This document shows positions 9,801-62,985 of a stretch of 64,000 nt of DNA, one piece after another. Every line of letters starts with the position of its first letter. The stretch's first letter is position 1. The DNA comes from Eledone cirrhosa. Taxonomy: Eukaryota. A model generated the notes under the pieces. It saw only the letters and a program-made list of their open reading frames with translations. It was not told the DNA's origin and made no database searches. The stretch covers positions 213,776,001-213,840,000 of the forward strand of contig OZ024743.1 in the NCBI GenBank assembly GCA_964016885.1, in the 5' to 3' direction. The translations under genes were made by a program, and so were the position numbers.

Positions 9801-10681
9801 TATATACACACACGTACATATTATATATATATGTGTACACACATACACACACGCACACACACGCACACACACACACGCACCCCCCCCCCCCACACACATA
9901 TATATATAACATCAAAATACATTAAAGAAGCAGAAGTAAACATGTTTGCAAATATTCATTCCAAGCTGCATTGGAATATTTTAATTTCTAATTACTACTT
10001 ATTGCTTGGTTGTTGAAATAGGATCCCGAATCAAATAATAAGAAACGTAGTGATGTTGATTGTACACTGCTGAAATTAATCAATTCATAAAAGTGAAGAA
10101 AAATACATTGTCTCGCAGCAGATTTGATAAGGGAACAGAACGTCATTTCAATTTTCTTTCAATTTTGTTATTATGTAAAACAAAAAATGAAAGTACTATA
10201 CATTGAATACATACATAATATGATTTGTAGTAGGTCTGTCATAGTCAATTGATTACAAATTCTTCTATATATATATAATGCAGATAATAAGGATATATAT
10301 CCGTGCAGGCTACATTGTAAGGCCGCGAGGATAAAGCGATTTAAAAACTCCCAAAGAGTTTCACGTCAATAGAGTATTCCCAGAGAAATTAGCTCACATC
10401 ACACCAAGATGTTAATAAATTACCAGCGGCATATCATCATACTTGCATAACTACACCTAATAATTGATGAACATCTGATGGTGTCACATAGTGACAGTCA
10501 ATGATATACCCAATGCATAACCATGTCATTTAAACATATATTTTGCAATAAAAGAATTATGTAAAAGAAACCACGTCTTAACATTTCGTATATATATATA
10601 TATATATGTGTGTGTGTGTGTGTGTAAACGGTAATCAGAAATAACAACACAATCGGTACATTATATAGAACGGATATATTA

Positions 10682-10716
10682 CCTTAACGTTTCGAAAGCT
10701 AGTCCTTCATCAGAAG
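10682..10716 (-). ncRNA. Minimal type-I hammerhead ribozyme
   Basis: Minus strand: CTT-CTGATGA-AGGACTAGCTTTC-GAAA-CGT-TA-AGG. Confidence 0.65.
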
Positions 10717-10817
10717 AAAGAATGAGAAATAAGATAGATTGAGGGGACGGGTGTGTTGGAATTGGAAAAATGTCTTTAGATAAAAATAACAGGTCCATTC
10801 ATGTTGACAAGATCTTT

Positions 10818-10985
10818 ATAGGGTCGGACACTATGCTTTTAGCATATTTACGTCCCTTTACGGCCTGAGTTCAAATCCCGTCGAGGTTAACTTTGCCTTT
10901 CATCCTTACGGGGTCGATAAGATAAAGTACCAGTAATGCACTGATTTATTGCTGGCCTTGTGCCAAAAGTAGAAACAATTATTAT
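10818..10985 (+). mobile_element. SINE copy (5' truncated)
   Basis: GAGTTCAAATCCCG..GTAGAAACAATTATT. Confidence 0.88.
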
Positions 10986-11042
10986 ACTGAATCTACATCC
11001 TAACTACAAAGTACTTCCCTTGCGTGCTCCCGTTTTTACCAA

Positions 11043-11234
11043 AATAATTGTTTCTACTTTTGGCACAAGGCCAACAATTACCCAGTGTATTACTGGTACT
11101 TTATTTTATCGACCCCGTAAGGATGAAAGGCAAAGTTAACCTCGGCGGGATTTGAACTCAGAATAGCAAGGGCCGTAACTCTATGCGTCAAAGCATGGCG
11201 TCCGACCCTCTACCGATACTGCCAATCCACCGCC
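11043..11234 (-). mobile_element. Full-length SINE copy with ~19-bp TSD
   Basis: TSD CCGTTTTTACCAAAATAAT at ~11030-11048 and ~11234-11252. Confidence 0.92.
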
Positions 11235-11619
11235 CGTTTTTACCAAAATAATCTCTTCGGAACACTTATATATACAATATATATATGTTCAATTTTTATA
11301 TATACTACTTTCATACAATTAACATATGTGCGTGACCTCACGTTTCGGGCTCCACGTATAGCCACCATTGTATAGCGGACGAGCCGTTATAAGACACGTC
11401 TATCTCATCTGGCGCAAGGAGAACATTTAAAGAAAAAAACATTACTTCATGAAATATGAGTGGAGAGTTCTCATCAATAACATGGTGTTGTGTCGAACCC
11501 TTAAACCAAAACCTAAACCTATAATACTACAGCACAACATGCTGTGTTGATCGGGGATATATATGATAGATGCATGACCTGAGCTAAAAGTTAATCGATG
11601 TGTATGCATTTGACTTAAG

Positions 11620-59300: not shown

Positions 59301-59911
59301 AATATTGAGCATGAAATTAAACATAGCGTTCCATTGCCGAGGCAGCATCATGACCAAAACACGTTGTGTTGTTGAGCTATTAGATCAAATCTCTCTCAAT
59401 ATAATAGGATTATGCGACAGGCTTATAAGGACGCAGCCCGAAGAACAATTTGATACAAATTGACAAATTAAGGAGTAGTTAATAATAATTAAAAGGTTAA
59501 TTAATCTCTATTATTCAAACATATCTAATTACCCTTTTAATTAATATATATAATTTTAGTACAGATTAAAGTTTAAGCAAAAAACGTATGCTTCCACCCT
59601 ATACGGGATATTCTAAAAAGAATAATAATCCCCTGAATTTTTTGTAGCCAAAATGGGTTTTTATGTCAAGAAATTGTTCTTTTCGCTCCACATAATGCCG
59701 TACCGCTCTTACGTCTTCCTCTTTTCTCTTGGTCGTAACGCTTTTTCAAATATTTACTTCTGCGTCTACAGATTGATTTTTTTTCTGTGTCAGAAGATCT
59801 CGTATAGGGTCAAAGCAGAAATTCTTTGCTTAAAATTTGATCTGTACTAATAATAAATATTTGCTCAAGGGCTATATATATATATATATATATATATATA
59901 TATATATATAT

Positions 59912-61010
59912 ATTAAAATAATAGATTAAAGTTTAAGCAAACAACGCTGCTTTCACCCTTAACGGGATCTTCTGAAACTATTAATGTCAATCTGTAAACG
60001 CAGAAGTAGATATTTCAAAAAAACGTTGCAGCCGGAGGAAGACAGGAAAACGATACTATGGTTCGTGGAAACGTTCCCTATTCAAATAAGTAATGGTATA
60101 AACAAATAGAAATACTATTAAAATTTCTTACTCTACGACTCCTAAACTTGCACATAACATCACAGCTTCAAATTTAGCTAAACTACCTAGCCGTAGGAAC
60201 ACGTTCAACCCTGTAGTTAGTACTAACTGTAATTGTAGGAATCGGGTTGATTGCCTCCTATCTGGGATATGCCTCTCTAGTAACATTGTCTACAGATGTA
60301 AGGTTGTAACACCCACGTCCCGTAAGTCCTACATAGGGTTAACCGCCAATAGATTCAAGCAGCGTCTTTACATGCATACCCATTCTTTTCGTTACCCTCT
60401 AAGAAGGAATATGACGTCACTTTCAGCTTATATCTAGAGTCTAAAAGACAACCACACCCAATATAAGTTACACTGGGAGATCCTAGCTAGGGCAAGATCG
60501 TATAACGGAAATAAAAGACCATGTGACCTCTGCGCCGCAGAGGCCTTGGAAATACTCTACGCCACAGACCCTCATCTTAAACAAAAAATCTGAGGCAATT
60601 TCGGCTTGTAATCATAAATTGCACAAAACTTTCCTGTATTACAGCCCCACGTTATACCCTAACGGATAGTACAATCTATACGTGGATATTTTACGTCTTG
60701 ATGTGGTAGCTAAGTATATGTTTTGTTTATACCATTACTTATTTGCATAGGGAACGTTTCCACGAACCAAAGTATCGTCTTCCTGTCTTCCTCCGGTTGC
60801 AACGTTTTTTGAAATACCCACTTCTGCGTTTACAGATTGACTTTGATAGTTTCGGGAAGATCCCGTTAAGGGTGAAATCAGCGATTCTTGGCTTAAACTT
60901 TAATCTGTTATTTTAATACATATTTGCTCTACGGTTCTTATGTATTTGATATATATTTATCCTTATCGAGCCCTCTTTGGATTTTAGTCTGCAAATTTAT
61001 TATTATTACT
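59912..61010 (+). mobile_element. Non-coding element with ~195-bp inverted HHR-bearing ends plus tail, between (TA)n tracts
   Basis: 59912-60106 is the reverse complement of ~60722-60918. Same layout as the PLE at 27641. Confidence 0.85.
59930..59979 (-). ncRNA. Type-I hammerhead, CAGAAGA (U4A) variant, best copy
   Basis: AGTTT-CAGAAGA-TCCCgttaaGGGT-GAAA-GCA..TGC-TT-AAACT. Confidence 0.7.
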
Positions 61011-62379
61011 ATATATATATATATATATATATATATATATATATATATATATATATATATATATATATATATATATATATATATATATATATATATACAT
61101 TTATATATATATTTATATCAATGCTTTAACCCTCAACGGGATGTTCTGAGTTTTAGAAGATCCTGTTAAGGGTGACAGCAGCGATTCTTTGCTTAAACTT
61201 TAATCTGTTATTCTAATAAGTATTTGCTCTATGGTTTTTATATATTTTTATATATATATTATCCTAATCGAGCCCTCGTCCGATTTTATTCTTCACATTT
61301 AGTATTATTACTATATATATATATATATATATATATATATATATATATGGAGAGAGAGAGAGAGAGAGAGAGAGAGAGAGAGAGAGAGAGAGAGAGAGAG
61401 AGAGAGAGAGAGAGAGAGAGAGAGAGAGAGAGAGAGAGAGAGAATGTCAGAGAAAGGGATGGAGGAATGAGAAAAACTAGAAATATGTATATGCATAATA
61501 ATCTATTGGATATGGAATCCTCATAAACAATCTGAGATGAGTTGAACTGAGTAACCTATAAAGCTTTTACATTAACAAGAAAATGTCATAACAAAAATAA
61601 TTAGATGAAAGAAGCTTGCAATTAGATAAAATATATAAATGAGAAAACATGATTACAAAATATAAGCAATTCAATAGACATACACTTTACTAGACACAAT
61701 GGAAAAAATAAAGCAAGTGTGTTGAACTGTTGCAAATACAGACGTTATGTTGTCTTCTGAAAAAGTAAAGAAGAACAGAAAATTCTTAGAAATGGATCGC
61801 TGAATGCAAAGAAAAGAAAACTAAATATACATTACCCTAAAAATGTACGCCATCATAAAAAAGAAAAACAGGATAAGCAGCATTTAAATAATATAAACTA
61901 TAAGATAATGTAGAATAATACGAAGAAAAAAGATACAAACAACAAGATAAGTTAATGAAAAGTTATATAGATAGACAAATATATGTAAGATGATACGTAG
62001 ATCCCTGAAACAGCCTTAAAACAGCAATTAAATATATATGATTAAAATCATATAACGGAGATATGCAAATATGTGTGTATATATATATATATATATGTAT
62101 ATATATATATATATATATATATATATATATATATATATATATATATATATATATATATATATATATATATATATATATATATATATATATATATATATAT
62201 ATATATATATACGGATTAACAAATAATAGTTAAATGCAGTCCACTTAGGTGAAGTCCAGTTATGGTATTCCAGGTAGTGGATGATATTAACGCTTGGCTT
62301 GGTTTGACTCAACAAGGCGTTTTCATAGTGATGCTGCGGGTATGCTGTAATTCCTATGTTGTAAACACTTGGAGTAATA

Positions 62380-62839
62380 ATAAATCAGGAAAGAAGGTTT
62401 ACATGGTTTGCTATACAAAAAAATTTTAATCACATAGCTTACATTTGTTTCACTGAACTGGTATGTCTAGAGATCGCTATCCGCTTAATTTTGCGTTACT
62501 CGATCGCCAATACAGAATTATAACCAGTCAGATCTTCGGAGCATGCGAGAATGAAGAAAATACACAGGCAAGAAAAGAAAAGAAAATACGGCTACTATAT
62601 GGAGTAGTTATGGCATTCAATAGTAGCCGTATTTTCTTTTCTTTTCTTGCCTGTGTATTTTCTTCATTCTCGCATGCTCCGAAGATCTGACTGGTTATAA
62701 TTCTGTATTGGCGATCGAGGAACGCAAAATTAAGCGGATAGCGATCTCTAGACATACCAGTTCAGTGAAACAAATGTAAGCTATGTGATTAAAAACTTTT
62801 TTGTATAGCAAACCATGTAAACCTTCTTTCCTGATTTAT
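62380..62839. repeat. Fold-back palindrome (~220-bp arms) with an HHR in each arm
   Basis: Spacer ~62599-62619; few arm mismatches. Confidence 0.93.
62673..62785 (+). ncRNA. Hammerhead with ~80-nt branched stem II (CCGAAGA core)
   Basis: CATGCT-CCGAAGA-TCTGACTGGT..ACCAGTTCAGT-GAAA-CAAATG-TA-AGCTATG. Confidence 0.72.
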
Positions 62840-62889
62840 GTATATATATATATATATATATATATATATATAATATAGAAACGAGTAGG

Positions 62890-62985
62890 ACCCCGACGTC
62901 TGAGCTCAAGCCGTTTCAACGGCTAATTCTGGACTAAATGAAAATTTTTATCCCGGTACATGAATAGCCGAGCTTCTCAGGGGGT
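62890..62985 (-). ncRNA. Hammerhead with mutated core (CTGAGAA), GUC site
   Basis: ACCCC-CTGAGAA-..CGGCTA..TAGCCG..-GAAA-CGGCTtgagctcAGACG-TC-GGGGT. Confidence 0.65.

What the first reader, a model, noticed from the sequence alone, without database searches (positions are those of the whole stretch)
10590..62985. Polarity rule: the ribozyme strand reads toward an adjacent (TA)n tract
Minus-strand HHRs (10682, 14947, 22799, 25105, 38120, 42946, 48336, 62890) have a TA tract just to their left. Plus-strand HHRs (13538, 31221, 42649, 49929, 54311, 62673) have one just to their right, about 10-210 bp away. Inference: the element 3' end is joined to (TA)n by target-primed reverse transcription at a TA-specific nick. 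The microsatellite would then be the landing pad, and it may be split or extended at each insertion.
Basis: partly seen in the sequence, partly recalled or inferred. Interest (0 to 1): 0.75.

Follow-up and report, generated by a model that had tools for sequence, protein, structure and literature searches.

The report
Penelope retrotransposon ends landing in TA
The ribozyme-like motifs do point toward TA repeats throughout this animal genome because they sit just inside the ends of a known kind of jumping gene (Hydra-type Penelope elements) already reported to prefer TA repeats; a small paired RNA stem found just past both element ends likely tells the copying enzyme where to start.

Summary
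The polarity is real. All 14 cited motifs have the nearer TA tract on their 3' side. In 137 evenly spaced genome stretches, 112 of 130 hammerheads have (TA)6+ within 300 nt downstream, against 53 upstream and about 32% expected; other dinucleotide repeats show no bias. The cause is ordinary: the larger families belong to Hydra-clade Penelope-like elements, published as having a sense-strand hammerhead near the 3' end and (TA)n targets (Craig 2021). The ribozyme is a passive marker. Insertions are mostly two arms head to head, one ending about 45 nt and the other 130-210 nt past the predicted cut. Both ends are internal template sites, matching two-site priming shown in vitro for a Poseidon element (Frangieh 2024). 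Details not found in print: a covarying 4-bp stem 5-11 nt past the ends (18 of 23 chosen sites, 3.5% at random) and 2-7 nt TA microhomology at the junctions. This scan reported the same stem earlier on other DNA. A pre-existing, split tract has modest support (one paralogous empty site; 12 of 16 flank pairs agree). No allelic empty site was obtained.

The parts
27625..27644 (.). (TA)n left flank of the long insertion; also the right flank of the mini-insertion 27471-27624
27645..28306 (-). Inverted 5'-truncated arm ending at the short end; hammerhead core 27726, predicted cut 27688
   Evidence: 98% identical to 30645-31306
28293..29819 (+). 5'-truncated ORF, RT then GIY-YIG-type nuclease, Hydra-type motifs; 96% identical to the 821-aa ORF in L114
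30645..31471 (+). 3' region: hammerhead core 31225, predicted cut 31263, short end about 31305-31310, long end 31471
31314..31347 (+). 4-bp stem (GCTC/GAGC) starting 8 nt past the short end; candidate start signal
31472..31553 (.). (TA)n right flank
12954..13787 (.). Two-armed copy of the same family: hammerheads -13036 (43 nt to TA) and +13543 (206 nt to TA); mirror-image flanks 12811-12925 and 13815-13973
27471..27624 (.). Two-armed mini-insertion of the 38177 family, too short to hold the hammerhead, TA on both sides; stem at 27543-27562
49608..50032 (.). Two-armed fold-back: hammerheads -49795 (132 nt to TA) and +49935 (43 nt); stem at 49666-49690
62212..62840 (.). Two-armed insertion: hammerheads -62539 and +62678, TA on both sides
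62873..62990 (-). End of another family (core at 62980, A at position 8) sharing the tract 62841-62872
25053..26575 (-). Second Hydra-type remnant: ORF piece 25997-26575, sense-strand hammerhead about 25234, ends at tract 24636-25052
38079..38190 (-). Short end of the 38177 family, 49 nt from cut to TA
14882..15530 (-). Two copies of the 15016 family (72 and 138 nt to TA); stem motif not seen, clade unknown
22749..22862 (-). Hammerhead 22852, 54 nt to TA
42645..42796 (+). Hammerhead 42655, 110 nt to a short TA tract; stem motif not seen
48327..48390 (-). Hammerhead about 48379, 16 nt to TA
54306..54381 (+). Damaged hammerhead 54316 (A at position 4) of a high-copy family, about 20 nt to TA
10630..10723 (-). 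Minimal hammerhead 10713 ending in (CA)n then (TA)n; relatives also run into (CA)n first
26912..27442 (+). 27144 family, ends at tract 27443-27470; stem motif not seen, clade unknown

Best explanation
The motifs are hammerheads in the terminal repeats of Penelope-like retrotransposons, mostly Hydra clade, and they point at (TA)n because they lie on the sense strand 40-210 nt upstream of two fixed element ends that are likely the start sites of target-primed reverse transcription at nuclease cuts in (TA)n. Shown: polarity; sense-strand position downstream of Hydra-type ORFs; two fixed ends per family; short-plus-long head-to-head arms with TA outside; both ends internal to the template; a 4-bp stem 5-11 nt past the ends; 2-7 nt of TA-compatible template at the junction; most arms run through the hammerhead cut site. 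Inferred: the GIY-YIG domain cuts both strands of an existing (TA)n; the protein binds the two stems; each DNA 3' end pairs briefly with AU-rich template and primes copying toward the RNA 5' end on uncut or re-joined RNA; the two cDNAs are joined head to head; the tract is left in two pieces that become targets for later insertions.
For: Polarity. Clade: motifs in L114 ORF against Craig 2021 section 11 and supplement alignment passages; 26 of 27 listed Hydra families have (TA)n preference, one from an octopus, and hammerheads are listed on the sense strand near the 3' end. Four families continue into Hydra-type N-termini past the long end. Fixed ends: 28 of 30 best copies of the 31225 family run from one base into TA; distances bimodal per family; 42 of 44 insertions with an inverted arm in view have one long and one short end (the query fixed the long end). 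Internal template: 11 of 11 upstream repeats continue without (TA)n. Stem: 18 of 23 chosen sites versus 3.5% random; outer pair A-U 11, G-C 5, other 3 when the partner is chosen without regard to pairing; seen by eye in coral Hydra-2_Amil. Microhomology mean 3.7 versus 1.8 nt. Arms pass the cut site in 38 of 42 short arms. Existing tract: L187 tandem unit with an unfilled (AT)10 next to the filled one; interruptions on both flanks on the same strand in 12 of 16, strong cases 7 of 8. In vitro precedent: both strands cut and extended, two internal starts, hammerhead cleavage not needed (Frangieh 2024).
Against: No nick, priming or self-cleavage tested. No allelic or cross-species empty site; the flank test is not significant (permutation p 0.07) and the paralogous empty site is one case. 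The 23 stem sites were hand-chosen; at least four families with templates (27144, 42655, 15016 and a tandem family in L224) show no stem, and their clade is unknown. Families share descent, so counts overstate independence. MFE folds recover the stem in only about half of the sites. 12 of 42 two-armed insertions have a spacer of 12 nt or less, which a fold-back would also give. No Pfam or PDB hit for the ORF and no tree was built. 18 of 130 hammerheads lack a downstream tract within 300 nt.
Confidence: 0.8

Rival explanations
1. One priming event plus fold-back: copying starts at the long end, the cDNA snaps back on itself, and the short end is where the nuclease cuts or resolves the product. 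Polarity is the same, but the short end is a cut site.
For: 12 of 42 two-armed insertions have nearly symmetric centres; Arkhipova 2013 reads junction palindromes as self-priming (passage); Craig 2021 ascribes the tail to nuclease resolution.
Against: 0 of 11 insertions of the 31225 family have a spacer of 12 nt or less; the same stem and microhomology sit at both ends; short ends also show terminal reiterations; two starts were seen in vitro for PAc.
Confidence: 0.12
2. The TA tracts are largely made by the element: the enzyme re-copies a short AU template, telomerase-like, at any AT-rich nick.
For: Terminal reiterations at 6 of 30 long ends; tracts next to hammerhead ends are longer, median 25 versus 18 nt; PAc cuts an ATT motif, not (TA)n.
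Against: The template holds no (TA)n; paralogous empty site already has (AT)10, filled site 18+9 nt; interrupted and compound tracts continue across the insertion on the same strand, e.g. L006, L013, L019, L022, L191; longer tracts are also larger targets.
Confidence: 0.07
3. Chance: TA tracts are so dense that any motif has one nearby, and the reader picked agreeing cases.
Against: 62 downstream-only versus 3 upstream-only in unselected loci, replicated; no bias for other dinucleotides; distances fixed within families.
Confidence: 0.01

Closest known systems
Hydra clade of C-terminal EN+ Penelope-like elements, incl. Hydra-1_Obim (Craig et al. 2021, PMC8557442; passages, sections 11 and 15, supplement part 2 and passages read)
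   Same: Protein motifs, sense-strand hammerhead near the 3' end, (TA)n preference, inverted 5'-truncated arm, one-sided tail.
   Different: Tail about 89-165 nt instead of 30-40; the 31225 family unit is about 4.2 kb instead of 'generally under 3 kb'; orientation statistics, the paired stem past both ends and junction microhomology are not in the parts read.
PAc, Poseidon element of Anolis (Frangieh et al. 2024, PMC11167929; parts 1-2 of 4 read)
   Same: Two internal start sites 3' of the hammerhead defining the tail; AT-rich target; template read through the hammerhead site.
   Different: There the sites lie in the ORF in an AC-rich stem-loop with no homology to the target; here they lie in the 5' UTR, each before its own copy of a 4-bp stem, with 2-7 nt TA microhomology.
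Minimal hammerheads of metazoan Penelope-like elements (Cervera and de la Pena 2014, PMC4209133; passages read)
   Same: Type I, short palindromic stem III, dispersed truncated copies, opposite-strand pairs 100-700 bp apart.
   Different: No link to (TA)n or fixed ends in the passages read.
Non-LTR retrozymes (Li et al. 2026, 10.64898/2026.07.22.740005; part 1 of 5 and passages read)
   Same: Type I hammerheads derived from Penelope terminal repeats.
   Different: Retrozymes are non-coding tandem arrays; the main families here are truncated pieces of coding elements.

Membership tests
Hydra-clade PLE | Single ORF, RT followed by C-terminal GIY-YIG nuclease | tested here: met
   821-aa ORF in L114; motif-by-motif match by eye to the Hydra alignment. 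Pfam and PDB gave no hit.
Hydra-clade PLE | DKG motif changed to DKT | tested here: met
   ADKT in L114, L127, L128.
Hydra-clade PLE | N-terminal RWK motif | tested here: met
   RWR in 31225 and 38177 families, RWT/RWI in 49935, RWK in L057; position matches, last residue varies.
Hydra-clade PLE | Linker CxCX5C; CCHH absent; CxxC and CxH near the nuclease end | tested here: met
   CNCRANRTC, CNLC, CQH in the window ORF and L114.
Hydra-clade PLE | Canonical hammerhead, sense strand, near 3' end | tested here: met
   core of the 31225 family has C at position 4.
Hydra-clade PLE | Insertion into (TA)n | tested here: met
   28 of 30 copies; genome sample.
Hydra-clade PLE | Placement in the Hydra clade of an RT tree | not tested
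   Reference proteins were seen only as supplement text; no tree built.
Hydra-clade PLE | Same protein features for the 27144, 42655, 15016, 10713 families | tested here: inconclusive
   No linked ORF identified; they obey the polarity but may be other clades or retrozymes.
PAc-type two-site internal priming (works-like) | Two fixed ends internal to the template, 3' of the hammerhead | tested here: met
PAc-type two-site internal priming (works-like) | No homology between start site and cut DNA | tested here: not met
   2-7 nt TA-compatible template at 23 of 23 sites, mean 3.7 versus 1.8.
PAc-type two-site internal priming (works-like) | Nuclease cuts both strands; both are extended | not testable with these tools
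   Needs purified protein.
Non-LTR retrozyme | Non-coding tandem array with a hammerhead per unit | tested here: not met
   Main families are contiguous with RT/nuclease ORFs.
Active hammerhead ribozyme | Self-cleavage | not testable with these tools
   No RNA holder listed; structure only.

The most novel reading that the evidence does not exclude
Hydra elements carry two copies of one RNA signal, a covarying 4-bp stem, that place two reverse transcriptases on the same RNA, each with a short AU template that pairs with a cut (TA)n end, in the manner of telomerase's boundary element and alignment region. One event then writes both arms, splits the tract, sometimes re-copies the start, and leaves two new targets, so these elements help fill the genome with TA tracts.
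Probability: 0.4. Interest if true: 0.65.

Novelty: new member of a known kind. Interest (0 to 1): 0.36.

Why it matters
The polarity itself only confirms, with numbers, what published Hydra annotations imply. The useful part is that the start signal can be named to the base: a stem 5-11 nt past each end plus short TA pairing gives direct mutants for the open questions of how Penelope-like elements make their tail, inverted arms and microsatellite bias. At about 100 descriptor-positive hammerheads per Mb (135 in 1.37 Mb; roughly 300,000 if extrapolated) these elements are a large part of this genome, though they adjoin only 109 of 2575 TA tracts sampled.

Tried and rejected
Rfam scan: no hammerhead family at E<=1; miRNA hits are fold-backs and microsatellites. 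First descriptor too strict, 4 hits. Empty sites from public runs: contigs of four runs were swamped by repeat copies and broke at tracts; RAD reads of three samples did not cover the unique flanks; no verdict. No RNA holder listed. Flank search among fetched loci gave one paralogous empty site, L187. Hammerhead-cut RNA as preferred template: five exact fold-backs centred on the predicted cut of the 38177 family plus L174, but control centres gave 4 and 1, so no clear excess; rejected as evidence. Longer tract at the long end than the short end: no (17 versus 22 of 42, p 0.74; pure-run lengths in the 49935 family were affected by anchor offsets). Automatic site calling over all families was noisy, with a 9.5% null, so sites were hand-chosen. 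Pfam, PDB: no hit. The protein atlas gave no result. Sequence look-up in earlier findings: nothing.
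Full report
Setting. The window is G000:C4:213776001-213840000 in a 3.0-Gb genome, AT-rich, with 118 (TA)6+ tracts. That it is an octopus-type genome is taken from earlier notes of this scan and was not checked.

Observation. All 14 cited sites hold a type I hammerhead-like motif on the stated strand, of uneven quality: 8 pass a structural descriptor, 42946 is doubtful. Each has (TA)5+ 16-208 nt downstream, nearer than upstream; chance is 24% per site. The descriptor finds 17 motifs in the window, 15 obeying the rule within 300 nt. 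Rfam finds none.

Test outside the window. In 77 evenly spaced 10-kb stretches the descriptor gave 97 hits against 1 in locally shuffled sequence. Of 92 hits away from edges (2 of 94 dropped), 83 had (TA)6+ within 300 nt downstream and 40 upstream; 45 versus 2 one-sided (p 1.6e-11); random positions 33%; CA, TG, GA and TC showed no bias. By family, 29 of 35. A second set of 60 stretches gave 29 of 38, 17 versus 1, random 31%.

What the elements are. At 27645-31471 lies (TA)n, an inverted arm, a 5'-truncated ORF, a 3' region with the hammerhead, and (TA)n. The family has an uninterrupted 821-aa ORF in L114 with RWR, ADKT, CxCX5C, CxxC and CxH, the features of the Hydra clade (Craig 2021, section 11), and matches the Hydra alignment by eye (supplement passages). 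Pfam and PDB give no hit; no tree was built. The 49935, 38177 and L057 families continue into similar N-termini, and the 25234 family lies downstream of such ORFs. Craig's supplement lists (TA)n preference for 26 of 27 Hydra families, one from an octopus, and sense-strand hammerheads near the 3' end. The polarity follows from these two published facts. Families 27144, 42655, 15016 and 10713 obey it but could not be assigned.

Two ends. Distances from predicted cut to tract are bimodal per family: 42-49 and 206-208, 38-45 and 132-134, 48-51 and 137-142, 54 and 149-163 nt. Of 90 loci from three families, 44 showed an inverted arm within the 1.5-kb flank; 42 of these pair a long with a short end (the query fixed the long end). 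In 11 of 11 copies with an upstream direct repeat the long end runs on into the 5' UTR with no (TA)n. So the tract is not part of the element and both ends are internal template positions. This is the 'tail' of Penelope-like elements, explained in vitro by two internal start sites, with both strands cut and extended and hammerhead cleavage dispensable (Frangieh 2024, parts 1-2 of 4). In agreement, 38 of 42 short arms pass through the predicted cut site, and fold-backs at that site are not clearly in excess.

Added detail. Past both ends the template reads a few A/U bases and then RYTC, with an exact GARY partner 10-73 nt on: 18 of 23 hand-chosen sites, offsets 5-11 nt, against 3.5% of random positions. 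Three of the five misses carry a wobble in the same stem, one used a filled copy by mistake, one has a different stem. With the partner chosen without regard to pairing, the outer pair is A-U 11, G-C 5, other 3. At least four families lack it. It is visible in coral Hydra-2_Amil. Junctions carry 2-7 nt of TA-compatible template, mean 3.7 versus 1.8, unlike PAc. Six of 30 long ends show short reiterations of the terminus. I saw the stem; one search then showed three earlier unreviewed notes of this scan with the same reading. Searches listed no paper describing it; subscription papers, Repbase notes, figure images and unread supplement parts may bear on this.

Landing pad. Both flanks are microsatellite in nearly all two-armed insertions. 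In L187 a tandem unit has an unfilled (AT)10 where its neighbour holds an insertion with 18+9 nt. Interruptions lie on the same strand on both flanks in 12 of 16 informative cases of 42 (p 0.07), 7 of 8 strong ones. Chains such as 26912-27442, TA, 27471-27624, TA, 27645-31471, TA show reuse of tracts. Adjacent tracts are longer (25 versus 18 nt), which does not separate extension from target size. Public runs gave no empty allele.

Verdict. Real and strong, but the expected footprint of a known clade and mechanism. The remaining interest is the testable start signal.

Noticed in passing
window 62873-62990 and relatives L036, L224, L232: High-copy hammerhead family (63 BLAST hits among fetched loci) with A at core position 8; one copy has the U3-A8 pair, others C3-A8.
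   Followed up: partly
window 52283-61219 (52303, 52543, 54316, 59791, 59974, 61154): Cluster of at least six copies of one family with A at core position 4; 59913-60916 is two-armed with a Hydra-type nuclease remnant at 60105-60654.
   Followed up: partly
window 12811-13973: Mirror-image flanks (67 nt plus CT/AG repeats) outside a two-armed insertion: insertion at the centre of an older palindrome, or flank duplicated during insertion.
   Followed up: no
window 243, 5184, 6889, 10804-11235, 18261, 19267, 24316, 32592, 36960: About 190-nt very high-copy repeat with a B-box-like word, probably a SINE; a head-to-head pair at 10804-11235.
   Followed up: no
window 465-1964: Non-LTR retrotransposon remnant (RVT_1 and zf-RVT hits).
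   Followed up: no
window 8917-9801: Mariner-like remnant with about 104-nt inverted ends (HTH_32 hit) flanked by TA tracts.
   Followed up: no
window 50129-51399: Complex tandem and inverted cluster of the 27144 hammerhead family; possibly retrozyme-like.
   Followed up: no
L187:1070-1750: Tandem of about 140-nt units that each hold the start-site stem but no hammerhead, separated by (CA)n(TA)n.
   Followed up: partly
L053: Several-kb inverted duplication holding mirrored copies of three different hammerhead families.
   Followed up: no
L174, L258-L262: Six fold-backs centred exactly on the predicted hammerhead cut of the 38177 family; not clearly above control centres.
   Followed up: yes
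window 37626-37992: Near-perfect 181-nt fold-back without a detected hammerhead, next to the tract at 38009.
   Followed up: no
   Followed up: partly
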